The translations under genes were made by a program, and so were the position numbers. The notes beneath the pieces were generated by a model that had not been told where the DNA came from, ran no database searches, and saw only the letters and a program-made list of their open reading frames with translations. Shown here piece by piece: positions 12,411 to 49,654 of a stretch of 64,000 bases of DNA. The stretch is taken from the NCBI GenBank assembly GCA_023138835.1, contig JAGLOP010000008.1:1149-65148 (forward strand), given 5' to 3'. This DNA comes from Arcobacteraceae bacterium. GTDB taxonomy: Bacteria > Campylobacterota > Campylobacteria > Campylobacterales > Arcobacteraceae. Position 1 is the stretch's first letter. The number at the start of each line of letters is the position of its first letter.

Positions 12411-12437
12411 TGGCGGACGAGGAGAGATTTGAACTCT
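12411..12437 (-). repeat. attL core (displaced 3' end of tRNA-Ser)
   Basis: TGGCGGACGAGGAGAGATTTGAACTCT is identical to 49565-49591. Confidence 0.9.
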
Positions 12438-12575
12438 TTGGCACTCATACACCTGATAATCGAATAAACACCAGTAAAATCGGGCTTTGTCTCTTATCTA
12501 TTAAGCGGATTTTAATACACAAATGCTTACATCTACCTAAAATCTTGTCAAGCCGACAAAATGGCGGTAAAAACC

Positions 12576-12634
12576 AACTGCACAAAAAACTGCACAAAAT
12601 CATAAACACTAAAAAACTGCACAAATACTGCACA
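12576..12634 (+). promoter_or_regulatory. four direct AACTGCACA/TACTGCACA repeats: candidate integrase arm-type sites
   Basis: Copies at 12576, 12588, 12615 and 12626. Two more in the same orientation at 49465 and 49476 on the other side of the core. Confidence 0.5.
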
Positions 12635-12682
12635 CTTTTTTACAACAATATCATCATCATATTTTTAACACCCGTCTTAACC

Positions 12683-12940
12683 TTTGTCTTAATGTCTCAT
12701 ATACTTTCAAGACACAGAAACAGCCATTTTTAAAGGGTGTATAGTTCTTTGTCTTAGTGTCTCAATACATTGTGTTAGTAATTAATATTCTAAATCTTGC
12801 TTTTTTTATTCTTAGCTTTTTACTTTTAGTTTATTAAAAATCAATAAGACATTAAGACAAACAAATAAAGAGAGTAGTAAAAATCGGGCTTTTCAGTATC
12901 TCAAAAGTGAACTAAAAAAATAAGACATAGATTGAGACAA
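12683..12940. repeat. bipartite GTCTTA-N-GTCTCA repeats, two direct plus two inverted
   Basis: TTTGTCTTAATGTCTCA 12683-12699 and TTTGTCTTAGTGTCTCA 12748-12764. Inverted: TAAGACATTAAGACAAA 12845-12861 and TAAGACATAGATTGAGACAA 12921-12940. Confidence 0.6.
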
Positions 12941-12948
12941 TCAAAAAA

Positions 12949-12962
12949 GTGAGACAAAAAAG
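12949..12962 (+). promoter_or_regulatory. 14-mer GTGAGACAAAAAAG (phage operon-head motif, copy a)
   Basis: 24 nt upstream of ATG 12987. See also copies at 18153, 29984, 40296 and 41937. Confidence 0.5.
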
Positions 12963-12986
12963 ATAAAAAAAAATATAGGATAGATT

Positions 12987-13250
12987 ATGGACAATATAGA
13001 AATACATACAATAGATTACGGGATAGTCAAATCTAAAGATCCATCAAAACATGGACAGACAATAGGACTAAAAACTAGACTTATAATCACACCTCCAACT
13101 GGAGCAAAAAAGATACTAGATTTTGATTATCAAGTGGAAGCTATCAAATATATTAAAGAGACTTATGGAAATAGTACCAATATTGGTAAAACATATCACA
13201 TACTTAGTAATTATAAATTGTATGGGGAAAAAGGCTATCAATGGAAATGA
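12987..13250 (+). CDS. hypothetical phage protein
   Basis: 87-aa ORF with AGGA 7 nt before the ATG. First gene of the terminase operon. Confidence 0.55.
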   Translation: MDNIEIHTIDYGIVKSKDPSKHGQTIGLKTRLIITPPTGAKKILDFDYQVEAIKYIKETYGNSTNIGKTYHILSNYKLYGEKGYQWK

Positions 13251-13771
13251 CACCACCACAAGCTAGAGCATTAGAAATATATTGTGAGAGTGCAACTATT
13301 GAGAATGAATACAAACCAGCTACTTTTAAAGAGATTGAAGAAAAACTAAAAGAAGAGCAAATGCAGGGTTCAAATTCTGCAATACAAAGATGGTCAAAAA
13401 AATTTAACTTTGAGGGTATTCTACAAGCTCAAATACAAATAGTAGTTATTAATGATGAAGATAAAACAACAGAACATAAAGCTTTAGATGTAGTAGTTAA
13501 AAAAAAGTTAGATGCACTACAAGTAAATAATGAATTAACAGATGATTGTTATGAAATTATGGGATTATTTGTTAAGCAAGTAGTAAATAACTATGATAAC
13601 ACTAATATTATAAAAAGAGATGATATTAAAATCATTAAAGATATAGCTACATTTACTGGTGGGCGTGAAGATAAACTACTTGATAGAATTGCTGAAAGTG
13701 GTGGAGATAAAATGACAAGTGAACAACAAATGGAAGAATTCAATGATATTGTCTTGGATATAGAAGAATAG
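13241..13771 (+). CDS. putative terminase small subunit
   Basis: Assigned by position only. It overlaps the large terminase start (TAGTG). 176 aa with an acidic C-terminus. Confidence 0.45.
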   Translation: MEMTPPQARALEIYCESATIENEYKPATFKEIEEKLKEEQMQGSNSAIQRWSKKFNFEGILQAQIQIVVINDEDKTTEHKALDVVVKKKLDALQVNNELTDDCYEIMGLFVKQVVNNYDNTNIIKRDDIKIIKDIATFTGGREDKLLDRIAESGGDKMTSEQQMEEFNDIVLDIEE

Positions 13772-15363
13772 TGTCAGCCACACCAACTTTAAAATTAAAA
13801 ACTGCAAAACATATAGCACCTGAAATATTTACAAATCAAACACCAAAATTACATATAGGATTATTAAATTTTTTGGCGAGTCCTGATAAGTATAAAGTTG
13901 CTGCAATTTTCAGAGGTGCAGGTAAAACAACAGTTGTAACAAAAGTGGATACTTTCTCTTCTATATGGCATGAGCATGAACCTTATCATCAAATATTTTC
14001 AGTAAATGAAAAAAAAGCTAAAAAGTTTTTAAAAGATGTAAAAACTATGATACGAAATGCTATTCGTAAAGGTTATGATATTCAGATTAAAAAGTTTAGA
14101 GGAAAAACAAGAGCAGATGATAAAGACCTTGTTTGGAATGATACTGAAATAGAAGTTGTTGTTGATGGTAAGTTCTTTTGTTATGTTGAAGCATTAGGAG
14201 CTGGTCAAGACCCAAGAGGGGGGTCATTTAATTTTATGAGACCTACATTACAAACATTTGATGATATTGAAAGTAAAAGAGGTCAATACGCAATAACCAG
14301 CAAATCTAATAGAGAAAAATTACTAGAATGGTTTGAGGGAGATTGTTTACCAGCACTAGACCCTATATTTGGTAGAGTTAGATTTATTGGGACAATACTA
14401 CACGAAGATTCATTATTAAGTAATATTTTAAAAGATGATGAGTGGGTGCAATTCATACAACCAATTATTAAAGATGATGGTACAAGTGCATGGAAAGATA
14501 GATTTCCACTCACGGATGAAGATGCCATAAAGAAAAAAGAAGAAATATTCAAAGCTACTGGTAAAGTTGCAAAGATTAGATCCATACAAGCTATAAAAAG
14601 AGGACTTTATAAAAAAGGTCTTCATAATCTATTTTATCAAGAATATTTATGTTTACCTCAAGCTGAAGAAAAGAAACTCTTTAAAAAAGAAATGTTTAAA
14701 TATTATTCTCACATTGAATATGATGACAAGGTAAGCTATTTTAAACTAACTAATGCCTTAGAGCATCAAGAAGTTCCAATTAGAAAACCCAAAAATATAG
14801 TATTAAATGATGGTAAAAAAATAGCTATTGATAATACTATTGTATATAGTACAATGGATTTAGCTACAAAAGATGGTAAAGATAAAACTGTAATTATTAC
14901 TTGTGGATATGACAGTAACAATAATATGTATGTACTGGATATTTCCTATGGAGACTGGACACCATTTGATAAAAGTGTAAATGCAATTAAAGTATATAAA
15001 GAGTTCAAGCCCTTAAAGTTTGGTATTGAAAAGGCTGGTATGCAAAATGACTATTTTTATACTATAGATGAAGCACAAAAAGCAAGTGGTGTTAAGATAC
15101 CAGTTAAAGAATTATCACATGGTGGAATTGCTAAAAATATTAGAATAAAAAATATTCATCCATTATTTATGGTAGGAAAAGTGTTTTTTAATGAGAGTGA
15201 TCCAGCAACATCTATATTAGAAGCACAATTTAATGCTTTTGACCCTGAAGTAGAAGGAAGCAATGATGATTTAATTGATACCTTAGCCTATCAACACCAG
15301 TTTATCAAAGGTAGAACATTTGAAAATGAAGAATATGAAGAAGAAGAGGAGAGTTCATGGTAA
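13771..15363 (+). CDS. terminase large subunit
   Basis: Walker A AAIFRGAGKTTV, Walker B-like LQTFDDIE, GTILHEDS. Nuclease half has MDLATKDGKDKTVI and NDDLIDTLAY. GTG start. Confidence 0.9.
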   Translation: MSATPTLKLKTAKHIAPEIFTNQTPKLHIGLLNFLASPDKYKVAAIFRGAGKTTVVTKVDTFSSIWHEHEPYHQIFSVNEKKAKKFLKDVKTMIRNAIRKGYDIQIKKFRGKTRADDKDLVWNDTEIEVVVDGKFFCYVEALGAGQDPRGGSFNFMRPTLQTFDDIESKRGQYAITSKSNREKLLEWFEGDCLPALDPIFGRVRFIGTILHEDSLLSNILKDDEWVQFIQPIIKDDGTSAWKDRFPLTDEDAIKKKEEIFKATGKVAKIRSIQAIKRGLYKKGLHNLFYQEYLCLPQAEEKKLFKKEMFKYYSHIEYDDKVSYFKLTNALEHQEVPIRKPKNIVLNDGKKIAIDNTIVYSTMDLATKDGKDKTVIITCGYDSNNNMYVLDISYGDWTPFDKSVNAIKVYKEFKPLKFGIEKAGMQNDYFYTIDEAQKASGVKIPVKELSHGGIAKNIRIKNIHPLFMVGKVFFNESDPATSILEAQFNAFDPEVEGSNDDLIDTLAYQHQFIKGRTFENEEYEEEEESSW

Positions 15364-15863: not shown

Positions 15864-16017
15864 AATGGTTACATTATAATTGGATATTAGTAATAAGCAA
15901 AAGCTTTCTTAGAAGAGCGAAAACAACAAAGTAATAAAATTCCATTACCTGATATTAAAGCTATAAGCACGAAGACTTGTAGGACTTAACGGATAAAATT
16001 AAGATTTTTTTATTTTA

Positions 16018-16044
16018 TTGAGACAAAGATTTTCACTGGGGAAA
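16018..16044 (+). promoter_or_regulatory. orphan copy of both phage motifs (TTGAGACAAAGAT plus TTTCACTGGGGAAA) with no ORF behind
   Basis: A degenerate 14-mer sits directly next to the 14-nt core of the 21-mer. The terminator at 16115-16141 lies ~70 nt downstream. Confidence 0.45.
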
Positions 16045-16114
16045 TTTATATTTTATTTTTTTTAAATTTTTTATATAAAATTGTACATCATCATAGTATA
16101 TACTAAGACTTCAA

Positions 16115-16141
16115 TGGGGTACATACCCCACCCTTTTTTTT
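16115..16141 (+). terminator. intrinsic terminator (plus strand)
   Basis: TGGGGTA-CA-TACCCCA, then CCC and T8. Confidence 0.7.
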
Positions 16142-16559
16142 CTGATGATGTTTAAAAAAGCAGTTCCTAAAAAAGAAAACTTAAGCCAAAAAGCACCAAA
16201 AACACCTTTTAACCTTAAAGTAGTAGCATTTCTTAAACAAATAGCCTTTAAAATTAATCTAAAGTGGTTAATTCTATATACTTTTAACTACTTTAGACCA
16301 TTTTTATCTAATTATCGCAGTATTTCAACTATTTATCACTTTCAATCAATTTGTCTTAAAATCTTAGTGGGATGGGATAAAAATCTGAAATATCCCATCA
16401 TCTCAACCCATACCGTAGCTTAACTCACTATTTGTTTTTTTAAAAATGTTTTCGTGCTTAGGGCTTGTAGTAGTAAGTAAGATAAAGGTTAGAAAATCGC
16501 CCCTTGGTGATGATAGTGATAATTTGCTGAAGCAAATTAAGATTGTCCCAGTTATGGTG

Positions 16560-16685: not shown

Positions 16686-16814
16686 CTATCTTTTTATATT
16701 CATATAGGCATTATTAATATTTTTAAGAACTTTTACATATTCATTGTTAGCAGTACATCCATTGAAAAGAAATAATATAAAAATTAATAGTATCTTTTTA
16801 TTTATCCACTTCAA
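16686..16814 (-). CDS. 42-aa putative lipoprotein, not in ORF track
   Basis: TTG start 9 nt after GGAG. MKWINKKILLIFILFLFNGC is a signal peptide with Cys. It overlaps the 3' end of 16798-17217. Confidence 0.35.
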   Translation of the reverse strand: MKWINKKILLIFILFLFNGCTANNEYVKVLKNINNAYMNIKR

Positions 16815-17217
16815 TATCTCTATCTCCTATCTTATAGTTTAAATAAATATTCCAGTAAGGTTTTTTATGTGGTTTAAATTCTTGATACTCTTCTTTTGTA
16901 AGATTATCTATAAATTGAGAATATTGACTAATCATCTTTTCTTTAGTATCTTTAAGCTGCTCTTTTTGATACATATTGTATTGACCATATAAAAGTAATA
17001 CTGAAACAGCTAAACTTATTCCTACTTCTTTATAGTCATATTCGGTATGACTATATTTAGCTACTAAAAATCTAATAAAACAAGTTCCGAGTATATAAAT
17101 GATAGCTAAATAAGAATTTACCATCATTAATATAAAAGTAAATAAAATAAATAACCAAAACTTTACTCTTGGTATTTCATTCTTTATAATTGATGCATCA
17201 AATTCTTTATCAGTCAT
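16798..17217 (-). CDS. prophage membrane protein (3 TM plus coiled-coil tail)
   Basis: 139 aa. Hydrophobic helices at about aa 20-45 and 65-85. Starts 4 nt after the HTH gene. Confidence 0.6.
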   Translation of the reverse strand: MTDKEFDASIIKNEIPRVKFWLFILFTFILMMVNSYLAIIYILGTCFIRFLVAKYSHTEYDYKEVGISLAVSVLLLYGQYNMYQKEQLKDTKEKMISQYSQFIDNLTKEEYQEFKPHKKPYWNIYLNYKIGDRDIEVDK

Positions 17218-17221
17218 ATTT

Positions 17222-17452
17222 CTATCTATTATCTTTAATCATATCTTGTACCGCAATAAGCTTTTTGATTTTATCTATGTCTAAATTATTCTTTTTACAA
17301 AATGAACCCAGCTTTACTACTTCAATTAATTTAGGTTGTTTGGATGACCATCCAGCTATTGTACTATAGCTTTTACCTGTATATTCTACTATATCGTTAT
17401 TATTTATATCTTTCATAGTTGATATGATACCTAAAAAACCTTTAACTATCAA
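17222..17452 (-). CDS. small HTH DNA-binding protein (repressor-like)
   Basis: DIVEYTGKSYSTIAGWSS is HTH-like. It diverges from the ParAB operon across an operator-rich spacer. Track start is TTG 17452; ATG 17416 is an alternative. Confidence 0.55.
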   Translation of the reverse strand: MIVKGFLGIISTMKDINNNDIVEYTGKSYSTIAGWSSKQPKLIEVVKLGSFCKKNNLDIDKIKKLIAVQDMIKDNR

Positions 17453-17558
17453 ATAAGAAATAAATATTTATTAATATTTCTTATTTGATATATGATTAAG
17501 CTACTCTTTATATTTCTTATGTGATAATTCTTTAAATAAATATTTCATATAAGAAATA
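17450..17558. promoter_or_regulatory. four copies of the 13-mer TATTTCTTATNTG arranged as two inverted pairs (operators)
   Basis: CAAATAAGAAATA 17450-17462 pairs with TATTTCTTATTTG 17475-17487. TATTTCTTATGTG 17511-17523 pairs with CATATAAGAAATA 17546-17558. Confidence 0.6.
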
Positions 17559-17572
17559 AAGAAAGGCACAAA

Positions 17573-18152: not shown

Positions 18153-18211
18153 TTGAGACAAAAAAGCAAATTATACGGATTAAACTACTGATAAAACTTT
18201 CACGGGGGAAA
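18153..18211 (+). promoter_or_regulatory. 14-mer TTGAGACAAAAAAG (18153-18166) plus 21-mer ATAAAACTTTCACGGGGGAAA (18191-18211)
   Basis: Both motifs lie directly in front of ATG 18211. Confidence 0.5.
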
Positions 18212-18571: not shown

Positions 18572-19201
18572 ATGGAAGTTATAGTAGTAGCCCACTCAAA
18601 AGGTGGAACTGGAAAGTCCACCATCATTTGGAACTTAGCACACTTCATAAGAAGTTTGGATAAACCAACAATCATTATAGATTTAGACTTCCAGCAAACA
18701 CAACATTATCTACATAGAATTAGAACATTAGAAGGCTTAACCAATCCACAAAATGATATTCCAGTATTTAGACCACAAACAGCAGATGCACTAATTAATA
18801 CATTAGAAAACTTTAGTGATCATTATATACTTATAGATGTAGGTGGATATGATAATGATATAAATCGTATAGCTATCAGCTGGGCAGATAAGATAGTAGT
18901 ACCTTTATCAGATAGTATTACAGATGTATTAGGATTTAAAACATTTGAAAATATATTAAAAGAGATAGACAATCCTTTTATAAACATAGTCCTAAACAAC
19001 ATCCACCCACTCACAAAGAACTTTAACACCATAAAAGAAGCCATAGGTTCAAATGAAGATATCAAACTATTAGACACAGTTATCAGAACTAGAAAAATAT
19101 ACAAAACTACAATGGGAGAAGGTAAATCAGTATTTGATATCAACCACACAGTGGCACAAGATGAAATAAAAGGATTATATTATGAAATTATCAGCAATTG
19201 A
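18572..19201 (+). CDS. parA: ParA/Soj-type partition ATPase
   Basis: Deviant Walker A VVAHSKGGTGKST. 209 aa. Confidence 0.9.
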   Translation: MEVIVVAHSKGGTGKSTIIWNLAHFIRSLDKPTIIIDLDFQQTQHYLHRIRTLEGLTNPQNDIPVFRPQTADALINTLENFSDHYILIDVGGYDNDINRIAISWADKIVVPLSDSITDVLGFKTFENILKEIDNPFINIVLNNIHPLTKNFNTIKEAIGSNEDIKLLDTVIRTRKIYKTTMGEGKSVFDINHTVAQDEIKGLYYEIISN

Positions 19202-21337: not shown

Positions 21338-21409
21338 GGGGTATTAGCTCAGCGGTAGAGCGGTGAGTTTCTAACTCATGCGTCGTCGGTTCGAATCCGA
21401 TATACTCCA
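21338..21409 (+). tRNA. tRNA-Arg(UCU), phage-borne
   Basis: GGGGTAT/ATACTCC acceptor, GCTC-AGCGGTA-GAGC D arm, GTGAG-TTTCTAA-CTCAT anticodon arm, GTCGG-TTCGAAT-CCGAT T arm. No encoded CCA. Confidence 0.9.
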
Positions 21410-21445
21410 CTTAAGTCCCTCTCGGGGGGATTTCTAATTTAGTTA

Positions 21446-23482: not shown

Positions 23483-23483
23483 C

Positions 23484-38228: not shown

Positions 38229-38237
38229 AACTTTTAC

Positions 38238-39170: not shown

Positions 39171-39202
39171 ATTATGTCCTTTGTTTTATATTATTCGTTT
39201 TA

Positions 39203-40245: not shown

Positions 40246-40295
40246 TTTAATCTCCTATATTTTTTTAACATACAAATCTTAACAATTAGGATTTA

Positions 40296-40309
40296 CTTTT
40301 TTGTCCCAC
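40296..40309 (-). promoter_or_regulatory. 14-mer GTGGGACAAAAAAG (copy e)
   Basis: Between the portal stop and ATG 40245, 50 nt upstream of the ATG. Confidence 0.5.
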
Positions 40310-40312
40310 TAT

Positions 40313-41950: not shown

Positions 41951-42168
41951 TAACCAAAAACTTTATATTTAGTTTGTGGTTTTCCATCAGGGTCAAGTAT
42001 CTCAATTTTACTTAATGCTTGACCTTTATACCAGTGTATATCATCAGCACTATCATACCGCATAAGCTTATAATCAAATATAATTATTTCTCCACCAACA
42101 ATAGTAGCTTTAATTTGACAATCTTCTATACTATAATTATTTTTTTCCATAATGTCCCTCCATATCAC
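41950..42168 (-). CDS. hypothetical protein
   Basis: 72-aa ORF overlapping the repressor gene end. Confidence 0.45.
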   Translation of the reverse strand: MIWRDIMEKNNYSIEDCQIKATIVGGEIIIFDYKLMRYDSADDIHWYKGQALSKIEILDPDGKPQTKYKVFG

Positions 42169-42472
42169 TCACTTTACTTGCTAACTCTTCTATCTTTTTA
42201 TATAAATCTTCATAACCCATAGGTTCTTTTTTCTCTTCAGTTAAATCAAGTCCACTATCAAGCACTATAGAGCCACGACCAAAAATTAACCAACAAGGAT
42301 TTAATTTAAAACACTTCTCAAATAAAAGTGCAATTTCAGGTGTAATATTTTGTTTATTACTTCTTAAATCACTAACTTTTTGTATAGAAAAACCAGTTTT
42401 ATCAGATATGTCTTTGTTTTTTAAACCAAATTTAACAATAAACTCTTTTAATCTTAAATGTATTCTATCCAT
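42137..42472 (-). CDS. XRE/cI-type HTH repressor
   Basis: LKEFIVKFGLKNKDISDKTGFSIQKVSDLRSNKQNITPEIALLFEKCF. Divergent from the replication operon. Confidence 0.8.
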   Translation of the reverse strand: MDRIHLRLKEFIVKFGLKNKDISDKTGFSIQKVSDLRSNKQNITPEIALLFEKCFKLNPCWLIFGRGSIVLDSGLDLTEEKKEPMGYEDLYKKIEELASKVSDMEGHYGKK

Positions 42473-42655: not shown

Positions 42656-43075
42656 ATGTTAAAAATTCTAAAAAGGTTTTTATTTATGACCCAAAAATAT
42701 CTACCAATACAAGCAGTAGCAACTATCAATGAAGTTGAACCTATCAAAATAATGTCTATATACTATAAAAATAAAGATGATGAGCGATTTAAAATCATAG
42801 ATGGTAAGGTATTTGTAGTAGAAAACTATAAATATCCTTTTGCAGATGAACTAAATGAACTAAGAGAAAAAGCACTCGTAATATCACACAATGAAAATAA
42901 ACTATGTCATGAATTATCACTCTTAGGTAATACAAACAAAGACACTTTACGAAAATACTTTTATAGATTTACATTTAAGCAAGTAAAACAAGCAAAAGAA
43001 TTAATAGCATTATTAACTTTATATATAAATCAAAATAGTTTATTTCCAACAGAAGAGTTAAACTATGAATATTAG
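42656..43075 (+). CDS. hypothetical early protein
   Basis: 139-aa ORF, first gene rightward of the switch. ATG 42686 is an alternative start. Confidence 0.55.
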   Translation: MLKILKRFLFMTQKYLPIQAVATINEVEPIKIMSIYYKNKDDERFKIIDGKVFVVENYKYPFADELNELREKALVISHNENKLCHELSLLGNTNKDTLRKYFYRFTFKQVKQAKELIALLTLYINQNSLFPTEELNYEY

Positions 43076-43295
43076 TCAAGAACAAAAACTAGATGAGCTG
43101 CAACATTACTTACAATTTCATTGTATAGATTATGTTTTACAAGTTAGAAGTATAAATATATCGCACAATATAACAAAAGAACTATTTATCTATAGTAAAG
43201 AAGATATTTCTCATTTTTTAAAAAAACATTTTGACTTAGAACACTCTATGGGCTTACATATTAGTAACTATAGATTTAGTTGGAGATTAATATGA
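43065..43295 (+). CDS. hypothetical early protein
   Basis: 76-aa ORF, overlapping its neighbours. Confidence 0.45.
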   Translation: MNISQEQKLDELQHYLQFHCIDYVLQVRSINISHNITKELFIYSKEDISHFLKKHFDLEHSMGLHISNYRFSWRLI

Positions 43296-43732
43296 AAAAT
43301 AATTTTAAACTACATCAAGATAGCGATTACAAAACTTACATAGTTAAACTCACATCAATATCTGCAAAACAAGTAGATGAGTTTATTAAAGATTACAATG
43401 TTTATTTCAAAGCTTTTAGTGAAGATGTACTAGCCAATCAAGTAGATACAAATATTTACCAAATTGACAACTTAAAAGATTTTGATGAGCAATACGAAGA
43501 TATAAAAAACCTAATGCCAAGTTCAAGTGTAAAGCATATAAGCTTTTATACCAACTGGATTAAAAATGAAGCAATACAACTTAAAAAAGTAGAAGATAGC
43601 TGCAACTTATTAAAAAGTGAAAATAAATCAACTTGTATATCTTCTCTACAAAAACACTCACAAGTTTCAAAAGAGATATGTGAACAATATTTAAAAAGTT
43701 TAGAACATCAACAAGAAGGATTATTTGAATGA
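43280..43732 (+). CDS. hypothetical early protein
   Basis: 150-aa ORF. Track start is TTG; ATG 43292 is likely. Confidence 0.5.
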   Translation: MEINMKNNFKLHQDSDYKTYIVKLTSISAKQVDEFIKDYNVYFKAFSEDVLANQVDTNIYQIDNLKDFDEQYEDIKNLMPSSSVKHISFYTNWIKNEAIQLKKVEDSCNLLKSENKSTCISSLQKHSQVSKEICEQYLKSLEHQQEGLFE

Positions 43733-44304
43733 AATTAAAACCAAGTATTAAATTTTCTATACTAGGAAAATCATCGGATTTTGAAGAAATTGTTGGAGTT
43801 TCAGTAATGGCAAATTATATAAGAACTGCTTTTGATGGTAGTATTGTTGAATTTTGTGATTATAAAACAAAATTTGAAAATTGGGATTGTCAAGAAATAT
43901 CATTTGATGAAGCATTATCTAGTTTTATAGATAAAGAAAAAATGAAAAAAGTAAATGGTTTCACAATGTACTTTAAAATTAAAGAAAATGAAAAATATAT
44001 AAATGCTAAAGACAATGTTATCTGTACAGCAAGACATAAAAGATTTAAAAGAATATCTTTTAAATTAGCTAGTTATTTACAACTACTATTATGGAAGCTA
44101 AATATTAATACTCATAATTTAGTAAACAAGGAATGTACGCCAGACTTTAGTTGTTGTATTGATGAAAAATCTATAAATACTCATCCATGTAGTGCCTGTA
44201 ATAAAGTAGTTGATATAGAAGAGATATGTAGAGTTACTTTACTTTGTGATGAATGCTGGGTTAAATATGAAGAACCAAAATTAAAAAAGGAAAAGCAATG
44301 TTAA
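43729..44304 (+). CDS. hypothetical protein with Cys-rich C-terminus (zinc-binding?)
   Basis: CTPDFSCC..HPCSACNK..LLCDECW. Confidence 0.5.
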   Translation: MKLKPSIKFSILGKSSDFEEIVGVSVMANYIRTAFDGSIVEFCDYKTKFENWDCQEISFDEALSSFIDKEKMKKVNGFTMYFKIKENEKYINAKDNVICTARHKRFKRISFKLASYLQLLLWKLNINTHNLVNKECTPDFSCCIDEKSINTHPCSACNKVVDIEEICRVTLLCDECWVKYEEPKLKKEKQC

Positions 44305-44909
44305 TTTATGATTGTGAAATAATAAAAGCAATACCAAATAAAAATGAAGAGCCAATTGAAAATATTGAATACTGTAAAGGGTGGGGCGACCATAAAGGTA
44401 TGGGTATAAGTGTAGCTGGTGTGTATGATTATATTGAAGATAGATATAGAGTATTTACACAAGACAATTTCCAAGAGTTTCAAGAACTTATAGATAATAG
44501 AGATTTAATAATTGGATTTAATTCACTAGGCTTTGATAATAAACTATGTGAAGCAAATGGTATTAATATATCTCATAAAAATCATTATGACATCATGCTA
44601 GAAATTGCAAAGTTAGTAAATCCAAATTATAAAACACGACCATCTTTTAAAGGATGTGGTTTAGATAAATGTTGTGAAGTAAATTTCAACACTAAAAAAA
44701 GTGGCAACGGAGCATTAGCACCTATTGACTGGCAAAATGGAAAAATAGGAACCGTTATAGATTATTGTCTTAATGATGTAAAACTTACTAAAAGACTACT
44801 TGATGAAATTATGTTCAATGGATTACTTACAAGTCCAGTAGATGAAAATATTGTTTTAGAATTTGATAATACTATTTTAATAAATGAACTTAAAAAGATT
44901 AAAAGATAA
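44298..44909 (+). CDS. DEDD-type 3'-5' exonuclease
   Basis: Exo I IYDCEI, Exo II GFNSLGFDNKL, Exo III DYCLNDVKL. Confidence 0.7.
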   Translation: MLIYDCEIIKAIPNKNEEPIENIEYCKGWGDHKGMGISVAGVYDYIEDRYRVFTQDNFQEFQELIDNRDLIIGFNSLGFDNKLCEANGINISHKNHYDIMLEIAKLVNPNYKTRPSFKGCGLDKCCEVNFNTKKSGNGALAPIDWQNGKIGTVIDYCLNDVKLTKRLLDEIMFNGLLTSPVDENIVLEFDNTILINELKKIKR

Positions 44910-47853
44910 GATAATGCAGACTGATTTATTTGAACTAGTAAAAAACGCAAACCTTGATATAAAAGAATTTATATCAACACATTATAATTTTGAATGGAAA
45001 AGAAATAAAACAGTTTGCCCATTCCACGGAGATGATGAAAAATCCCCAAACTTTTCTTATGCACCAAAACTAAATATAGTTAAATGTATGGTTTGTGAGC
45101 AAGGTGGAGACCTTATCAATTTTATAGTAGCATATAAAAAAATAACAAAACTTCAAGCTTGTATAGAGATACTTGACTTTGAAAATATCTCTTATGATAG
45201 ACCTGATGAAACGACAGTAGAAACAAAAGAAGAAAGAGAAAAAAGACAAAAAGAATTCAAAGAGAACCAAGCTAAAAATGAAAAAAGAAAAATAGCAAAA
45301 GAAAAAGAGTTACAAAAAGATAAAGATAAAGCCATAGTAACTATGACAAAAGATAGTAAACTTCATGCTAAAAATTTAGATTTATTTACACATCATAAAG
45401 AGTTAGGAGAATTAGTCTATAACCAATCAGACACATTTGCTCATTGGTTAAAACTTTATCTAGGATATGATACTAAGCATCAAACTATTTGTATTTTAAA
45501 TAGATTAAATGATAATGCTAAAACAACATTTAATATCAAACATAGATTAAAATATGAGTGGGATGACAAACAAAAACAACATACAAACATTAGAAAAGCT
45601 GGTAAATGGTTAAGCACTTATGACTCTACTACATATCCATTTCCTTATGATTATTTTCAATATGCAAGTGCTTTAGATGAAGTTGTATTTTTAACAGAGG
45701 GTGAGAAAGATGCCTTAAATCTTTTAAGCTATGATATAAATGTTTTAACTTTAGGTGGTGTAAGTACCAGCTGGGAAGACCACAAAGAAATATTAAAAGA
45801 TAAGATAGTTTATATTTGGTTTGACAATGACAATGCAGGATATAAAGGTGCAATAAATCAATACAATGCAATTAAAGATATTGTAAAAGAAGTTTATATT
45901 GTACTATTCTTTGAAATAAATCCAAGCTTACCAAATAAATATGATATAAATGATTTTATAAAAGATAAAAAGTTTAAAAACAAAGCTGAAATATTACATT
46001 CAATAGGATACAGTAGTTTTAAACTTACAACAGCAGTTGTCGAAAATATAGAACATTACACCAGTTTAGATTTAAGAGATTACTATTGTATAGAACCTAT
46101 AAAAACAATCCAAGATATAAAAAAATATTGGTTAAAACAAGATAGCGACCACCAACCTATAAACATAGTTAGAGCAAACGGACAAAAAGATATAAAAGGC
46201 TTAAATGAATTTATACAATATTTCAAAGATGAAAAAAAATATAAAAACTTTCATAAAATCACAGTAGAGCAAATAGCCTTAAATCTTATAAATATAGATG
46301 ATGGTGCAAGAGAAGAAAAATCTTTAGAGTTAGTGGAACTTATGAAAAATCTAGCACTAAATTATGAAGATTTACACAAAGATTATTCACAAACACATAT
46401 ATCAGATATGGTAGAAGCTTTTGAGATTATGTCAAAGAAAACTGATAACACTTTTGCTAAGTATGGAAGTGTATTATCTATATGGACTGGAACATATTAT
46501 CAGATATTAGAAAACCATGATGACTTTAATAGATTTGTACTTAAAGGGTGGATGCCAAAAGCTAGAGTTGATAAGAAAAAAAGAAGTAGTGAAAATGTAG
46601 ATAAAATTTTAAAAGATGTTTATGTTGGAGCAGTAAGTTTAGATGAGATTAAACACTACAGCCAAAAAGGTAAAAGAGTTATAAACTTTACAAATGGTAC
46701 TTTATTTATCACATCGAAAGGTAAAGTAACTTTTAAAAATATCCACGATAAAAAAGATGCCTGTACAAATATATTAAAATTTGAATACGACACAAAAGCA
46801 GTATGCCCAAAATGGACAAAGTTTTTAAATAGAAATATTCCAAACAAAGATGACCAAGCTACACTTATGGAATTTATAGGATATTGTTTTTTACCGGCAC
46901 ATAACTATGAAGCATTTTTATATCTTTATGGAGCAGATGGAGCAAATGGAAAATCAGTTATCATAGATACTATAAAAGAGTTCTTTGGAAAAGACAACAC
47001 ATCAGCACTTGACTTACAAAACTTAAAAGGTCATGAACTAGAGGGACTTACTAATAAACTTGTAAATGTAGGAAGTGAGTTAGATACAAAAAACTTACGA
47101 GATGGTCAGATGAATGTTCTAAAAAAACTAACATCAACCAAAGATGATTTACAAATAGATCCAAAACATACAAAAGGTTTCTTGCTTACAAGTGAAAACC
47201 AACCAAAGATGATAAGTGCTGGAAATGGAGAACTAAATCCAAGCACTTTAGATGGTGGAGTTTTAAGAAGAGCCTTACAAATTAACTGCGATATAGTAAT
47301 TGAAGATGATGAAAAAGTAAGAGCATTAAGTGATAGGTTTGAAGATGAGATGAATGGAATACTAAATCTAGCATTACAAAGTTTAGGCAACTTAATCAGA
47401 AATGGCAAATTTACAAAATCTGAAAAACTAAAAGAAACAATAGAAAACTACAAAGACCAAGCTAATCCAATAAGAAGATATATAAATGATTGTTTAGAAC
47501 TAGATGAAGAAGTGATAATACCAAAAGATTTTTTATATGCACACTATAAAGAGTACATGAAAGAAAAAGGAAGTATGCCATTATCTCAACCTAAATTCTT
47601 TAACAAAATTTACACACAACTAAAAAAAGTACAAGATATAGGGCAACAAAGAGTAAATGTAGAAGATATAGCAAAAGATAGACCAAGATTTATACAAGGT
47701 GTATTTTGTAACTCAAATGATGTATATAGTTTTGACCTTGAAAAGAAACAAGTTAAAACAGAAAACATTAACTACGATTTAAAACTTAAAACAGTAGTGG
47801 TAAAAGATGATGATATAAATACAAAACAACAGGTTATGAATTATGAGCAATAA
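44884..47853 (+). CDS. bifunctional primase/SF3 helicase (Zn finger, TOPRIM, P4/D5-type NTPase)
   Basis: CPFHGDDEKSPNFSY..CMVCEQGGD; VVFLTEGEKDALNL..IWFDNDNAGYKG; Walker A YGADGANGKS. ATG 44914 is the likely start. Confidence 0.85.
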   Translation: MNLKRLKDKIMQTDLFELVKNANLDIKEFISTHYNFEWKRNKTVCPFHGDDEKSPNFSYAPKLNIVKCMVCEQGGDLINFIVAYKKITKLQACIEILDFENISYDRPDETTVETKEEREKRQKEFKENQAKNEKRKIAKEKELQKDKDKAIVTMTKDSKLHAKNLDLFTHHKELGELVYNQSDTFAHWLKLYLGYDTKHQTICILNRLNDNAKTTFNIKHRLKYEWDDKQKQHTNIRKAGKWLSTYDSTTYPFPYDYFQYASALDEVVFLTEGEKDALNLLSYDINVLTLGGVSTSWEDHKEILKDKIVYIWFDNDNAGYKGAINQYNAIKDIVKEVYIVLFFEINPSLPNKYDINDFIKDKKFKNKAEILHSIGYSSFKLTTAVVENIEHYTSLDLRDYYCIEPIKTIQDIKKYWLKQDSDHQPINIVRANGQKDIKGLNEFIQYFKDEKKYKNFHKITVEQIALNLINIDDGAREEKSLELVELMKNLALNYEDLHKDYSQTHISDMVEAFEIMSKKTDNTFAKYGSVLSIWTGTYYQILENHDDFNRFVLKGWMPKARVDKKKRSSENVDKILKDVYVGAVSLDEIKHYSQKGKRVINFTNGTLFITSKGKVTFKNIHDKKDACTNILKFEYDTKAVCPKWTKFLNRNIPNKDDQATLMEFIGYCFLPAHNYEAFLYLYGADGANGKSVIIDTIKEFFGKDNTSALDLQNLKGHELEGLTNKLVNVGSELDTKNLRDGQMNVLKKLTSTKDDLQIDPKHTKGFLLTSENQPKMISAGNGELNPSTLDGGVLRRALQINCDIVIEDDEKVRALSDRFEDEMNGILNLALQSLGNLIRNGKFTKSEKLKETIENYKDQANPIRRYINDCLELDEEVIIPKDFLYAHYKEYMKEKGSMPLSQPKFFNKIYTQLKKVQDIGQQRVNVEDIAKDRPRFIQGVFCNSNDVYSFDLEKKQVKTENINYDLKLKTVVVKDDDINTKQQVMNYEQ

Positions 47854-47870
47854 AACTTTCACTGGGGAAA
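47850..47870 (+). promoter_or_regulatory. 21-mer ATAAAACTTTCACTGGGGAAA (copy 3)
   Basis: Starts inside the primase stop codon and ends 4 nt before ATG 47875. Confidence 0.5.
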
Positions 47871-47874
47871 TATT

Positions 47875-48135
47875 ATGACTGAACAAATAATGCAAGGACT
47901 AACAATAGCAATATTTCAAATACTATTAGTATTTTTCAAACACTTAAATATTAGAATAATTGTAAAAGAAAAAATATCTATAAGTATGTTCCTAACTTTT
48001 ATGATACAACTATCATGGTTAGTTTCAAGTTCATTAGGGATATCAGCATTTTTAGACAGTGATTATATTTTAGTAACTGTTTATCTACTAAGTGGAGTAA
48101 TTGGAACATATTTGAATTTTAAGGTAAAAGTATAA
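47875..48135 (+). CDS. small 3-TM membrane protein
   Basis: 86-aa hydrophobic ORF between the replication and recombination modules. Confidence 0.55.
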   Translation: MTEQIMQGLTIAIFQILLVFFKHLNIRIIVKEKISISMFLTFMIQLSWLVSSSLGISAFLDSDYILVTVYLLSGVIGTYLNFKVKV

Positions 48136-48137
48136 AG

Positions 48138-48386
48138 ATGGATGAACTAGCTGAATTAAAAAGAATGTATTTAGAGTTAAAAGCTAAGGTGGAAGCCTTA
48201 GAGTTAACAACATACAAAGAGATTTTATTGACAGATTTAGCTAGAGAATTAGATATACATAGACAAACTTTGACATACTATGTTAAATCAAATTTTGAGC
48301 CTGAAGTAGATTTTTATAAAAAAAATAATAAAATATACCTTGATGTAAGTATTTTGTGTAGATTAAGGAAACACTATGCAAAATAA
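48138..48386 (+). CDS. excisionase-like HTH protein
   Basis: LLTDLARELDIHRQTLTYYVK. Overlaps the integrase start. Confidence 0.55.
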   Translation: MDELAELKRMYLELKAKVEALELTTYKEILLTDLARELDIHRQTLTYYVKSNFEPEVDFYKKNNKIYLDVSILCRLRKHYAK

Positions 48387-49515
48387 AAACAAAGCTGGAT
48401 TTATGGTTAGGGGTAATAAAATCTATGTTCAAGGTAGCCTTGATGGAGAGTTCAAAAGATATTCAACTGGTAAAGAAGCTAATAAGCTAAATTTATCATG
48501 GATAAAAAAGAACCACCAAAAAGAGCTGCTAAGAATACATGATCTAAAAACTAAACCAAAAAAACAAAGCACGAATTTTATAGAATATGCTTTATCAAAT
48601 CTTGAATTAAAAGCCAGTGGTAGAAAAGCTGGAACGATAAAAGATTATAATAAAATATTCAAAGGTAAAATTCAACCGTTCTTTAAAAACTATGATTTAA
48701 ACGATATTAAAAGAAATGACCTAATGATATGGCAAAATAATCTTGTAAAAGATGGACTAGCCGGTAAGACTATTAATAGTATCAGAGGTGTGTTTAACTT
48801 TATACTTGAAGAAGCTAGAAAAGATGAAATAATAGAAAAGAATTATTTCACTTTAGTTGATAGAGTTAAAACCAAAGCCCCTGACATTACACCATTTTCA
48901 CTAGATGAAGTTAAACTAATGTTATCAAAAGCAAATGAATGTTGGCAAAAAAATCTTATCCAAGTAGCATTTTTTACTGGATTAAGAAGTGGCGAACTAC
49001 TAGGATTAAAATGGGAAGATATAAACTTCGTATCAAAAACAATCTCTATCAAAAGAGCAATAAGAGATGGTAAGATTGATACACCAAAAACTCAAAGTAG
49101 TATCAGAACTATTGATATGCTACCACTAGTTGAAGATGCACTTCTAAAACAAAAAGCGAATACATATCTTAGAAACAGTTTTGTATTTTTAAACTATTTA
49201 GGAAATCACTTATACGACAATGCAAGTATAAGAAGAGGATTTTGGAAAAATATCCTAATGCTTACAGGACTAGACCATAGAGATATGTATCAAACAAGAC
49301 ACACATTTGCATCTATCATGATTAGTCGTGGAGAAGATATTTTATGGGTTAGCCAAATACTAGGACACTCAAATCCAAATATCACACTTTCTATATATGC
49401 TAAGTTCATAAAAACAGAAAAAGTAACAAGAGCAACTTTTCTAAATGACTTTTCAATAGCAAAAAACTGCACAAAAACTGCACATCTAAAATTCAAACAA
49501 AAAGAGAGTGCTTAA
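48376..49515 (+). CDS. int: tyrosine integrase
   Basis: TGLRSGELLGLKWEDI (Arg I); YQTRHTFASIMI..LGHSNPNITLSIYAKF (H-x-x-R, H, Y). Lies 50 bp from tRNA-Ser. Confidence 0.9.
   Translation: MQNKNKAGFMVRGNKIYVQGSLDGEFKRYSTGKEANKLNLSWIKKNHQKELLRIHDLKTKPKKQSTNFIEYALSNLELKASGRKAGTIKDYNKIFKGKIQPFFKNYDLNDIKRNDLMIWQNNLVKDGLAGKTINSIRGVFNFILEEARKDEIIEKNYFTLVDRVKTKAPDITPFSLDEVKLMLSKANECWQKNLIQVAFFTGLRSGELLGLKWEDINFVSKTISIKRAIRDGKIDTPKTQSSIRTIDMLPLVEDALLKQKANTYLRNSFVFLNYLGNHLYDNASIRRGFWKNILMLTGLDHRDMYQTRHTFASIMISRGEDILWVSQILGHSNPNITLSIYAKFIKTEKVTRATFLNDFSIAKNCTKTAHLKFKQKESA
49465..49484 (+). promoter_or_regulatory. two AACTGCACA repeats (arm-type sites) inside the int 3' end
   Basis: 49465-49473 and 49476-49484, in the same orientation as the four copies at 12576-12634. 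Confidence 0.45.
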
Positions 49516-49564
49516 AAATGTTAGCTAAAGCCTTATTTTATTGTACATTGGTAAAAAGATTTGA

Positions 49565-49654
49565 TTGTTATATAGTGGCGGACGAGGAGAGATTTGAACT
49601 CTCGGTACCCGTTAGGATACGCACCCTTAGCAGGGGTGTGGTTTAAGCCACTCA
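49565..49654 (-). tRNA. tRNA-Ser(GCU), intact; 49565-49591 is the attR core
   Basis: GGACGAG/CTCGTCC acceptor, CACCC-CTGCTAA-GGGTG anticodon arm, long variable arm GTATCC-TAAC-GGGTAC, GAGAG-TTCAAAT-CTCTC T arm, G73 and an encoded CCA. Confidence 0.92.

What the first reader, a model, noticed from the sequence alone, without database searches (positions are those of the whole stretch)
12411..49591. Integrated prophage with a phage-plasmid (P1-like) maintenance kit and a split morphogenesis layout
The element is clearly integrated: 27-bp att repeats, and int/xis next to tRNA-Ser. Yet it also carries ParA-ParB (18572-20588), a second minimal tyrosine recombinase (20715-21299), a tRNA, a DarB-like giant protein and two separate repressor/operator regions (17222-17572 and 42137-42655). 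Those are hallmarks of extrachromosomal phage-plasmids such as P1.

The terminase genes (13241-15363, plus strand) lie next to attL. They are separated from portal/capsid (38238-41890, minus strand) by the partition module and about 23 kb.

Either this phage can alternate between integrated and plasmid lifestyles, or it is a fusion of two elements. In the second case 12.4-21.4 kb would be one part and 21.4-49.6 kb the other.
Basis: partly seen in the sequence, partly recalled or inferred. Interest (0 to 1): 0.65.

Follow-up and report, generated by a model that had tools for sequence, protein, structure and literature searches.

The report
Integrated phage carrying plasmid-partition kit
This is one complete 37-kb virus integrated into a serine tRNA gene of an Arcobacter-like bacterium that also carries a working-looking plasmid-segregation system, so it can probably persist either inserted in the chromosome or as a free circle; this dual set-up is already known from a few other phages.

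Summary
A 37,165-bp prophage lies between perfect 30-bp repeats (12408-12437 and 49573-49602) at tRNA-Ser(GCU). It has int and an xis-like gene at the right end and terS/terL at the left end. It also carries ParA, ParB, a 194-aa tyrosine recombinase, tRNA-Arg and a 2149-aa DarB-like protein.

The "fusion of two elements" reading is rejected. About 100 relatives in Campylobacterota share the backbone. The layout of terminase on one strand, a variable slot, then the structural block on the other strand is conserved. Unintegrated relatives read int-attP-terS-terL without a break.

The slot differs between relatives. It holds ParA-ParB with or without the small recombinase, another ParA type in relatives without an integrase, an integrase, or nothing.

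ParB has matching sites. The 14-bp motif TTTC(A/C)C-NN-G(G/T)GAAA occurs 5-6 times in the prophage and never in the host flanks. It changes together with ParB type in unrelated elements. The partition system therefore looks functional, and an episomal phase is plausible but unproven.

"P1-like" is an analogy only: there is no homology to P1.

A conserved, base-paired non-coding element of about 590 nt (15957-16551) next to the slot, absent from Rfam, is the most novel thing seen.

The parts
12408..12437 (.). attL core, the left copy of the 30-bp repeat
   Evidence: Perfect 30/30 direct repeat with 49573-49602. The same core, with 1 mismatch, lies just upstream of the orf87-terS-terL block in the integrated relative L043.
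12576..12623 (+). Three AACTGCACA repeats, candidate integrase arm-type sites on the left side of the att core
   Evidence: The motif occurs at 12576, 12588, 12615, 49465 and 49476, with only one other copy in the 64-kb window.
12987..15363 (+). orf87, small terminase (13241-13771) and large terminase (13771-15363)
   Evidence: phrog_38 E=1e-56. More than 100 TerL homologues at 40-71% identity, many on 34-40-kb contigs. orf87 and TerS are conserved in relatives.
15957..16551 (+). Conserved non-coding, base-paired element of about 590 nt. It is either a structured RNA or a replication origin.
   Evidence: - No ORF.
- 67-73% DNA identity in L014, L043, L097 and L094.
- A nucleotide profile finds it directly after TerL, in the same orientation, in 34 non-redundant sequences, including phages whose TerL is only 41-45% identical.
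- The 5' and 3' ends are complementary over a long range, with compensatory changes.
- Helices covary: 91% paired versus 78% in shuffles, 0/500.
- No Rfam match.
16798..17572 (-). A 139-aa and a 76-aa ORF on the minus strand, plus a divergent control region (17453-17572) with inverted TATTTCTTAT repeats. This is the putative regulator of the maintenance cassette.
   Evidence: No family hit. The 76-aa protein is 54-59% identical to proteins next to partition modules in L007, L015 and L092. Repeats seen.
16031..16044 (+). parS-like site 1 (TTTCACTGGGGAAA), inside the conserved non-coding element
   Evidence: L009 carries its own palindrome TTCCCCGCGGGGAA at the same position.
18198..18211 (+). 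parS-like site 2 (TTTCACGGGGGAAA), directly upstream of the o118-parA-parB operon
18572..19201 (+). ParA, a small Walker-type partition ATPase without an N-terminal DNA-binding domain
   Evidence: Pfam AAA_31, MipZ and CbiA. phrog_164 E=7e-29. NCBIfam ParA_partition E=2e-29, below the family cut-off.
19182..20588 (+). ParB (468 aa): ParB_N plus HTH, followed by a lineage-specific C-terminal half of about 240 aa. It contains parS-like site 3 at 19735-19748.
   Evidence: ParB_N E=1e-23. TIGR00180 scores 131 bits, above its cut-off. The N-terminal half is 55-64% identical to Campylobacterota ParBs, including those of Aliarcobacter butzleri plasmids. Internal site.
20715..21299 (+). 194-aa tyrosine recombinase consisting of the catalytic domain only
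   Evidence: - Phage_integrase E=2e-13.
- It aligns to residues 127-275 of archaeal XerA. The candidate catalytic motifs (GARISE, HSFR, RHKD, LRY) are present by eye in that alignment.
- The 24 homologues are nearly all 194-204 aa (three are longer). Those whose contigs could be matched are on contigs of this phage family.
- It sits directly after ParB in L152.
21338..21410 (+). tRNA-Arg(UCU)
   Evidence: ARAGORN and Rfam. Absent from the close relative L014.
21446..41890 (-). Late (virion and lysis) block: 678-aa protein, 2149-aa DarB-like methyltransferase-helicase, internal proteins, holin, tail fibre, major capsid protein, scaffold-like protein, portal. No tape-measure or tail-tube gene was identified. 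parS-like sites lie at 26951-26964 and, in degenerate form, at 39592-39605.
   Evidence: PHROG and Pfam hits. The order TerL(+), slot, 678-aa(-), giant(-) is conserved in relatives. Sites.
42137..42472 (-). CI-like HTH repressor, divergent from the early operon
   Evidence: HTH_3 E=2e-4. phrog_8, 3 and 4. Phage_CI_repr proteins occupy this position in L009 and L012.
42656..47853 (+). Early/replication operon, including an RNase-H-like exonuclease (44298-44909) and a 989-aa primase-helicase (44884-47853)
   Evidence: phrog_864 E=8e-55. Zn_ribbon_DnaG, Toprim_2, D5_N, DUF5906 and Pox_D5 domains.
47857..47870 (+). parS-like site (TTTCACTGGGGAAA), directly upstream of the m86-xis-int genes
   Evidence: A site at the equivalent position upstream of xis exists in L097.
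48138..49515 (+). xis-like 82-aa gene and a 379-aa tyrosine integrase. Two AACTGCACA arm-type repeats lie at 49465 and 49476.
   Evidence: phrog_1 E=2e-63. Phage_int_SAM_3 plus Phage_integrase.
49573..49602 (.). attR core, overlapping the 3' end of tRNA-Ser(GCU) (49576-49665, minus strand)

Best explanation
Shown:
- The region is one intact temperate, short-tailed phage of 37,165 bp. Its portal and capsid are of the SU10 type, and no tape-measure gene was identified.
- It is integrated by its own tyrosine integrase into the 3' end of tRNA-Ser(GCU) of an Arcobacteraceae-like genome.
- It belongs to an uncultivated phage family spread across Campylobacterota.
- In this family the terminase operon follows attP on one strand. 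The whole virion block lies on the other strand, converging on a variable 'maintenance slot'. The split layout is therefore ancestral, and the terminase sits next to attL only because attP lies between int and terS.
- In this phage the slot holds an exchangeable cassette: a small putative regulator, ParA, ParB and a catalytic-domain-only tyrosine recombinase.
- ParB's likely binding sites are present as 5-6 dispersed copies of TTTC(A/C)C-NN-G(G/T)GAAA.

Inferred:
- After infection or excision, the 37-kb circle can be kept as a low-copy episome.
- ParB loads at the sites and ParA segregates the copies. The small recombinase may resolve multimers. Replication would come from the P4-alpha-like primase-helicase, and perhaps from the conserved 590-nt element.
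- Int and Xis move the genome in and out of tRNA-Ser.

The phage is thus an intermediate, facultative form between its purely integrative relatives and its integrase-less, plasmid-type relatives.
For: One unit:
- The perfect 30-bp att repeat sits at a tRNA.
- Arm-type repeats lie on both sides of the core.
- The backbone is collinear in relatives. L009 (a 38-kb contig) reads portal(-)|CI|primase|xis|int|orf87|TerS|TerL|...|ParA|ParB|giant(-).
- L095 and L097 show the same int-terS junction.
- L043 is integrated at the same tRNA-Ser core, with the terminase next to attL.

Conserved split layout:
- TerL(+) followed by 678-aa(-) and giant(-) occurs in about 45 of the fetched loci (some are duplicate records), down to 41% TerL identity.
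- A second group has TerL-portal-capsid on one strand, which points to an old inversion of the structural block.

Variable slot:
- ParA+ParB with or without the small recombinase: window, L009/L010, L043, L152.
- Another ParA type plus the small recombinase (seen where the slot is fully covered: L012/13, L091, L092), with no integrase between primase and TerS, on 31-36-kb contigs: L012/13, L016, L048, L086, L091, L092.
- An integrase in the slot: L025, L066, L140.
- Nothing: L018, L020, L021.
- L014, 83-86% identical in the structural genes, lacks ParAB but keeps two sites.

Functional partition system:
- The motifs are intact.
- The 20-bp motif occurs 5 times against 0.03 expected, all inside the prophage.
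- The 14-bp pattern occurs 18 times in 113 kb of elements that carry this ParB clade, against 6 in 1.82 Mb elsewhere. These elements include the unrelated integrated element L007, the phage-like L149 and the conjugative element L150. Each has one copy inside parB.
- L009, with a different ParB, has its own palindrome TTCCCCGCGGGGAA four times at equivalent positions.
- ParB homologues occur on real Aliarcobacter butzleri plasmids.

Precedent: phages that may alternate between integrated and episomal states are noted in PMC7969092.
Against: - This copy is integrated. No episomal form can be seen from an assembly.
- The Logan contig that ends exactly at the att core is explained by a 30-bp repeat breaking a k=31 graph (the explanation rests on my own knowledge of that assembly method).
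- Unintegrated relatives could simply be virion or lytic DNA.
- No dedicated plasmid initiator (Rep) was found.
- The ParB sites could serve gene regulation, as for KorB, rather than segregation. Two of them lie right at operon starts.
- The small recombinase lacks a core-binding domain and its target site is unknown.
- The close relative L014 has lost ParAB, so the cassette is dispensable.
Confidence: 0.6

Rival explanations
1. The phage is purely integrative. The ParB-site system acts mainly as a KorB-like regulator or silencer (for example of the par operon and of m86-xis-int), or in positioning replicating phage DNA. It does not maintain a plasmid prophage.
For: - Sites lie directly upstream of the o118-parA-parB operon (18198) and of m86-xis-int (47857). 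The latter position is conserved in L097.
- The best ParB homologue, P0002, has a weak KorB domain hit.
- Both ParAB-carrying genomes seen in a chromosomal context (the window and L043) are integrated.
- L007 is a second, unrelated integrated element with the same module.
Against: - A complete ParA partner is kept.
- Sites are also scattered inside long coding genes (the giant gene and parB), far from promoters.
- Integrase-less relatives rely on a ParA in the same slot.
- The same ParAB clade sits on conjugative elements and plasmids.
Confidence: 0.25
2. The cassette is a recently acquired, neutral or decaying passenger in a normal integrative prophage.
For: - The slot turns over quickly. L014 lacks ParAB, and L015 has only a ParA fragment.
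- The cassette is shared with unrelated elements.
Against: - All cassette ORFs are intact and their motifs conserved.
- 5-6 matching sites are spread over the whole 37-kb genome, including backbone genes. That implies long co-residence.
- The same ParA-ParB-recombinase unit recurs in L043 and L152 at 37-80% identity.
Confidence: 0.1
3. Two elements are fused or sit in tandem: 12.4-21.4 kb (terminase plus partition) and 21.4-49.6 kb.
For: Terminase and portal lie on opposite strands, 23 kb apart. G+C is lower in the left part.
Against: - Only one pair of att repeats bounds the region, and no internal att copy was found.
- The terminase is linked to the same structural block in about 45 fetched loci, with or without any partition genes.
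- The int-attP-terS junction is seen in unintegrated relatives.
- G+C is low in the early operon at 42-49 kb as well.
Confidence: 0.03

Closest known systems
Phage P1 (plasmid prophage with ParA-ParB-parS, Cre-lox, DarB, tRNAs)
   Same: The functional kit is the same: partition ATPase plus ParB plus sites, a tyrosine recombinase beside them, a giant methyltransferase-helicase protein of the DarB type, a tRNA gene, and terminase genes apart from head genes.
   Different: - No sequence relationship.
- The virion is of the short-tailed SU10 type, not a myovirus.
- ParA is the small type without the N-terminal DNA-binding domain.
- The recombinase is 194 aa against Cre's 343 aa (Cre length from my own knowledge).
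- This phage has a lambda-type int/xis/att system and is integrated.
Cluster A mycobacteriophages with parABS in place of the integration cassette (PMC7157519)
   Same: - Related phages carry either an integration cassette or a parABS cassette at a collinear position.
- ParB types are diverse.
- A par-proximal non-coding region of about 600-670 bp that expresses an RNA is needed for replication. This resembles the 590-nt element at 15957-16551.
   Different: - There the two cassettes replace each other. Here int and parABS coexist in one genome and sit at different places.
- The 590-nt element here also occurs in relatives without any par genes.
- Host phylum and virion type differ.
Temperate phages reported or suspected to have both integrated and episomal states (phiC725A, Staphylococcus phi80b/phi84b, P88; PMC7969092), and P1-like phage-plasmids found integrated (PMC10879196)
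   Same: A phage genome combines plasmid partition or replication genes with a chromosomal location.
   Different: - The lineages are unrelated.
- Here integration is by a dedicated int/xis/att-tRNA system with clean att sites. It is not secondary capture near other prophages.
Satellite phage P4 (integrated or multicopy plasmid; alpha primase-helicase). From my own knowledge, not tested here.
   Same: A D5-type primase-helicase replicon is combined with a tRNA-targeting integrase and an optional plasmid state.
   Different: P4 has no ParAB and no virion genes. No sequence comparison was made.
KorB/IncC of plasmid RK2, and ParA(Soj)-dependent maintenance of excised integrative elements such as PAPI-1. 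From my own knowledge.
   Same: The ParB-family protein has many dispersed palindromic sites of TTT...AAA form, some at operon starts. A partition ATPase is kept by an element that integrates.
   Different: Only a weak KorB-domain hit in a homologue. A regulatory role here is untested.

Membership tests
Integrative temperate prophage (lambda-style site-specific integration) | Direct att repeats at the ends, one within a tRNA gene | tested here: met
   30/30-bp repeat. The right copy overlaps the tRNA-Ser 3' end.
Integrative temperate prophage (lambda-style site-specific integration) | Full-length tyrosine integrase with an arm-binding/SAM-like N-terminal domain, next to att | tested here: met
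   379 aa, Phage_int_SAM_3 plus Phage_integrase, phrog_1 E=2e-63. Repeated arm-type motifs lie on both sides of the core.
Integrative temperate prophage (lambda-style site-specific integration) | Complete virion, lysis, packaging and replication gene set | tested here: met
   TerS/TerL, portal, scaffold-like protein, capsid, fibre, holin and primase-helicase are all intact ORFs. Whether particles are produced was not tested.
Phage-plasmid (temperate phage kept as a plasmid in lysogeny) | Plasmid partition genes in a phage genome | tested here: met
   ParA and ParB.
Phage-plasmid (temperate phage kept as a plasmid in lysogeny) | Prophage is extrachromosomal in the lysogen | tested here: not met
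   This copy is chromosomally integrated. Whether an episomal state also exists cannot be tested with these tools.
Phage-plasmid (temperate phage kept as a plasmid in lysogeny) | Plasmid-type replication function active in lysogeny | tested here: inconclusive
   No Rep-family initiator was found. The candidates are the primase-helicase and the conserved 590-nt element.
P1-like phages (Punavirus) | Homologous backbone or sequence similarity to P1 | tested here: not met
   No megablast hit in 50,697 phage or 72,556 plasmid records. The best isolated-phage TerL is at most 26% identical and N4-like. Portal and capsid are of the SU10 type.
P1-like phages (Punavirus) | Large ParA with an N-terminal DNA-binding domain (type Ia) | tested here: not met
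   ParA is 209 aa and Walker A starts at residue 10.
ParABS partition system with a small ParA (type Ib-like) | Deviant Walker A ATPase of about 200 aa | tested here: met
   KGGTGKST. It matches NCBIfam ParA_partition over the full 203-position profile, though below the equivalog cut-off.
ParABS partition system with a small ParA (type Ib-like) | ParB with ParB_N (GERR CTP-binding motif) and HTH | tested here: met
ParABS partition system with a small ParA (type Ib-like) | Cognate repeated centromere sites on the same replicon | tested here: met
   By comparison only. The sites are enriched about 50-fold, are absent from the host flanks, and covary with ParB type across unrelated elements. Binding was not tested.
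DarB-type virion antirestriction protein | Giant protein with N6-methyltransferase and helicase domains | tested here: met
   phrog_10089, phrog_11801, SNF2 and Helicase_C.
DarB-type virion antirestriction protein | Packaged in virions and protects incoming DNA from restriction | not testable with these tools
   Only its position in the late block supports this.
Xer/Cre-type multimer-resolution recombinase | Catalytic residues of tyrosine recombinases | tested here: met
   The candidate R, H-x-x-R, H and Y motifs were read by eye from the alignment to XerA and not individually mapped.
Xer/Cre-type multimer-resolution recombinase | N-terminal core-binding domain and an identified target site | tested here: not met
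   Only residues equivalent to XerA 127-275 are present. No convincing site was found near the gene.
Known RNA families (for the 15957-16551 element) | Match to an Rfam covariance model | tested here: not met
   None at gathering score or at E<=1.

The most novel reading that the evidence does not exclude
The phage is a truly bimodal lysogen. Its ParB is bound at dispersed sites, one directly upstream of xis-int and one inside a family-wide structured element of about 590 nt. In this reading ParB links episome segregation, copy control and the integrate-or-stay-free decision. The 590-nt element would be a new class of phage structured RNA, acting as an RNA-based origin or immunity element. It would be analogous to the par-proximal RNA origins of mycobacteriophages, but conserved across a whole Campylobacterota phage family.
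Probability: 0.2. Interest if true: 0.8.

Novelty: new member of a known kind. Interest (0 to 1): 0.5.

Why it matters
- It adds a clean example, in a poorly studied host group (Arcobacteraceae and other Campylobacterota), of a temperate phage that keeps both an integration system and a partition system.
- Its relatives cover the whole range: integrative only, both systems, and partition only. This natural series shows how phages move between chromosomal and plasmid lifestyles by swapping one slot.
- The ParB/site pairs that change together give ready-made, testable centromere predictions. They could supply parts for genetic tools in Campylobacterota.
- The conserved 590-nt base-paired element is a candidate new structured RNA or origin.

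Tried and rejected
- Near-identity DNA search of 24.6 kb of the prophage against deposited phages and plasmids found nothing.
- Single-protein scans of IMG/VR gave only 25%-identical hits for TerL and none for ParB. An alignment-based scan was needed.
- The canonical chromosomal parS (TGTTTCACGTGAAACA, up to 3 mismatches) is absent from the window and from the ParB-carrying loci.
- Fusion or tandem-element idea: rejected by collinearity.
- Logan contig ending at the att core as evidence of excision: rejected. A 30-bp repeat breaks a k=31 graph by itself.
- Idea that the inverted-repeat-bounded 590-nt segment is an invertible switch for the small, FimB/E-sized recombinase: unlikely.
  - All 34 non-redundant TerL-linked copies have the same orientation.
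  - The element occurs in phages without that recombinase, such as L018 and L021.
  - Its helices contain conserved G-U pairs, which only work on the plus-strand RNA.
- Rfam found nothing for that element. The sub-threshold hits at 15625-15777 reflect only a minus-strand terminator hairpin.
- An exact 15-mer scan of IMG/VR for the conserved hairpin returned 34 loci. None contains the element: only two weak partial profile matches (E=3e-4), so these look like chance hits.
- Family searches for the 76-aa 'second repressor' found nothing.
- The A. butzleri plasmid with a 45%-identical ParB has none of the window-type sites, so site specificity differs within the ParB clade.

Full report
**1. What is in the sequence**

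The window has about 27% G+C. By exact protein look-up it comes from a 1.18-Mb metagenome scaffold. ParB and TerL homologues carry Arcobacteraceae, Sulfurimonas and Campylobacter names.

A perfect 30-bp direct repeat lies at 12408-12437 and 49573-49602. The right copy overlaps the 3' end of tRNA-Ser(GCU). The excised circle would be 37,165 bp.

Gene content is as described:
- orf87, TerS and TerL on the plus strand at 12987-15363;
- an ORF-poor gap of 1.4 kb;
- two small minus-strand ORFs (16798-17452) facing a plus-strand operon that ends with ParA, ParB, a 40-aa ORF and a 194-aa tyrosine recombinase (17573-21299);
- tRNA-Arg(UCU);
- a 20-kb minus-strand late block (21446-41890), running from a 678-aa protein and a 2149-aa DarB-like methyltransferase-helicase to the SU10-type capsid and portal, with no tape-measure gene identified;
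- a CI-like HTH gene (42137-42472, minus strand);
- a plus-strand early operon with a 989-aa D5-type primase-helicase;
- an xis-like gene and a 379-aa integrase.

The motif AACTGCACA occurs three times just inside attL and twice just inside attR. That pattern is expected for integrase arm sites of a single attP.

**2. One phage, not two**

TerL has more than 100 homologues at 40-71% identity. Many are on contigs of 34-40 kb. I fetched 148 loci around TerL relatives from genomes, IMG/VR and metagenomes. I then mapped all window proteins onto them.

Two results settle the fusion question.

First, the order TerS-TerL(+), a variable stretch, then 678-aa(-) and giant(-) recurs in about 45 of the fetched loci (some are duplicate records). 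This holds down to Campylobacter and Sulfurospirillum prophages with 41-45% TerL identity. A sister group has TerL-portal-scaffold-capsid on one strand. The split layout is therefore an old inversion of the structural block and a trait of the family.

Second, the unintegrated relatives L009 (38-kb contig), L095 and L097 read primase-xis-int-orf87-TerS-TerL without a break. L043, inside a 617-kb contig, has the same tRNA-Ser core (1 mismatch) directly upstream of orf87-TerS-TerL.

The terminase is next to attL simply because attP lies between int and terS.

**3. The variable slot**

Between TerL and the 678-aa gene, relatives carry one of the following:
- ParA plus a ParB_N-type ParB, with or without the 194-aa recombinase: window, L009/L010, L043, L152.
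- A different, minus-strand ParA, with a small adjacent ORF in L012, plus the recombinase where the slot is fully covered (L012/13, L091, L092). There is no integrase between primase and TerS, and the contigs are 31-36 kb: L012/13, L016, L048, L086, L091, L092.
- An integrase: L025, L066, L140.
- Essentially nothing: L018, L020, L021.

L014 is 83-86% identical to the window in the 678-aa and giant genes. It has no ParAB but keeps the recombinase.

The family therefore spans integrative-only, both, and partition-only forms. The window phage carries both. This resembles cluster A mycobacteriophages, where parABS replaces the integration cassette at a collinear position (PMC7157519). Here, however, the two systems coexist.

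**4. Is the partition system real?**

ParA has the deviant Walker A box. ParB has the GERR and ENIQR motifs, and the GERRYKA variant is common in its clade.

A 20-bp motif, AAAACTTTCACNGGGGAAAT, occurs 5 times in the window against 0.03 expected. All copies are in the prophage.

The core reduces to TTTC-N-C-NN-G-N-GAAA. Counts of this core:

| Sequence | Copies |
|---|---|
| Window prophage | 5 |
| 26.8 kb of host flanks | 0 |
| L007 | 4 |
| L043 | 2 |
| L149 | 3 |
| L150 | 4 |
| Remaining 1.82 Mb of loci | 6 (3 of them in the close relatives L014 and L097) |

L152 has 2 more copies.

L007 is an integrated phage-like element that shares only the recombinase-ParA-ParB module, the small 76-aa ORF and a partial match to the 590-nt element. 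L149 is another phage-like element. L150 is an F-type conjugative element.

Each of the window, L007, L043, L149 and L150 has one copy inside parB itself. L009 has a more distant ParB and lacks this motif. It carries its own palindrome, TTCCCCGCGGGGAA, four times at equivalent places: in the conserved non-coding element, inside parB, inside the giant gene, and next to the repressor genes.

Sites that change together with the ParB type, in otherwise unrelated replicons, are what is expected of true centromere sites. ParB homologues also sit on real Aliarcobacter butzleri plasmids.

I take the system to be functional. Whether its main job is segregating an episome or KorB-like regulation remains open. 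Two sites abut the starts of the par operon and of m86-xis-int.

**5. The other 'hallmarks'**

- The giant DarB-like protein and the 678-aa protein are core late genes in relatives of every lifestyle. They are not plasmid markers.
- The 194-aa recombinase matches only the catalytic domain of Xer-type enzymes. Its 24 detectable homologues are nearly all 194-204 aa (three are longer), and those whose contigs could be matched lie on contigs of this phage family. Multimer resolution is a reasonable guess, but no target site was found.
- The second 'repressor' (76 aa) has no family match. It does travel with partition modules in L007, L015 and L092.
- 'P1-like' fails every homology test.

**6. Known or new?**

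Phages that may alternate between integrated and episomal states, and P1-like phage-plasmids that have become integrated, are already described (PMC7969092 and PMC10879196). This is therefore a new member of a known kind, in a phage family with no cultured representative.

**7. The most unexpected item**

The stretch 15957-16551 lies in the ORF-free gap.
- It is conserved at the DNA level in close relatives.
- A nucleotide profile detects it directly after TerL, always in the same orientation, in 34 non-redundant sequences. These include phages whose TerL is only 41-45% identical.
- Its two ends are complementary over 20-25 nt (-20 to -37 kcal/mol in at least 12 of 22 sequences), with compensatory substitutions.
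- Internal helices covary. 91% of cells are paired against 78% in shuffles (0/500) and 37-52% when partners are slid. There are 30 double-sided changes against 10.8.
- Conserved G-U pairs favour an RNA read from the plus strand.
- It contains one ParB site and a strictly conserved hairpin, GGGGTACATACCCC, followed by a T run.
- It matches no Rfam family.

It recalls the par-proximal, RNA-expressing origins of about 600-670 bp in mycobacteriophages. However, it is also present in relatives that have no par genes. Its function is unknown.

Noticed in passing
window 15957-16551 (+): A conserved non-coding element of about 590 nt, found directly after TerL across the whole phage family.
- Its ends pair over a long range and its internal helices covary.
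- It has a strictly conserved GGGGTACATACCCC hairpin followed by a T run.
- It has repeated CTTAAG-containing motifs and one ParB site.
- It is not in Rfam.
It is a candidate new structured RNA or an RNA-based origin.
   Followed up: partly
window 10380-10409 and 9072-12148: A degenerate copy of the att core (27/30) lies 2 kb left of attL. It encloses a hipA-like kinase gene (10550-12148). A Fic-domain gene (9072-10214) lies just beyond it. This is probably the remnant of an earlier element inserted at the same tRNA-Ser.
   Followed up: partly
window 15395-15777 (-): A 40-aa hydrophobic ORF (15461-15583, MGWTYYERILMGIGEAIVIAIVGPASWHILSMLREWKDKK) is followed by a minus-strand terminator at 15418-15395 and preceded by another terminator hairpin at 15660-15625. 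The arrangement looks like a type I toxin-antitoxin locus or small membrane-protein locus. This stretch of about 500 bp is absent from L043 and L014.
   Followed up: no
window 15818-15857: A tandem array of the 11-bp unit TTATAGTTTAG (3.6 copies, 93% matches) lies just upstream of the conserved element. It is not conserved in relatives.
   Followed up: no
window 12685-12960: A dense cluster of TGTCTTA/TGTCTCA motifs and their complements TAAGACA/TGAGACA lies between the arm-type repeats and orf87-terS. Single TTGAGACAA copies also sit 10-45 nt upstream of the ParB sites at 16031 and 18198. These could be packaging or late-promoter control sites.
   Followed up: no
loci L026, L030, L034, L035, L063, L070, L076, L081, L101, L117, L135 versus the window type: The family has two architectures that differ by inversion of the whole portal-to-tail block relative to the terminase. 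In the collinear type, a tyrosine recombinase of small or normal size often sits between primase and TerS.
   Followed up: partly
L014:3749 and L014:12406: The closest structural relative lacks ParA and ParB but keeps two ParB-type sites, one in the conserved element and one in the giant gene. This suggests recent loss or exchange of the cassette.
   Followed up: partly
L009:8103-8392: Twelve copies of AAGTCGTGAA, in both orientations, lie between int and orf87 of an unintegrated relative. They are probably its attP arm sites. The 210-aa ORF called there is probably spurious.
   Followed up: partly
L153:8696-16284: A decayed remnant of a related prophage sits in a 156-kb contig. It retains the small recombinase, a 690-aa homologue of the 678-aa protein, a truncated primase (206 aa), xis and int, flanked by host genes.
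   Followed up: no
window 21446-23482 (-) and 13771-15363 (+): The 678-aa protein has a short match to the C-terminal end of N4-type virion RNA polymerases (phrog_2206, E=2e-6). The nearest isolated-phage TerL proteins are N4-like. This hints at a distant link to N4-like podoviruses and at an ejected-protein role.
   Followed up: no
window 16370-16380 and equivalents in alignment A5, columns 303-316: Inside the conserved element, a tandemly duplicated 5-mer changes as a unit between relatives: GGGAT-GGGAT, GAGAT-GAGAC, GCAAC-GCAAC, GAAAC-GAAAC, GGGGT-GGGGT. In some sequences there are matching complementary 5-mers downstream, in others not.
   Followed up: no
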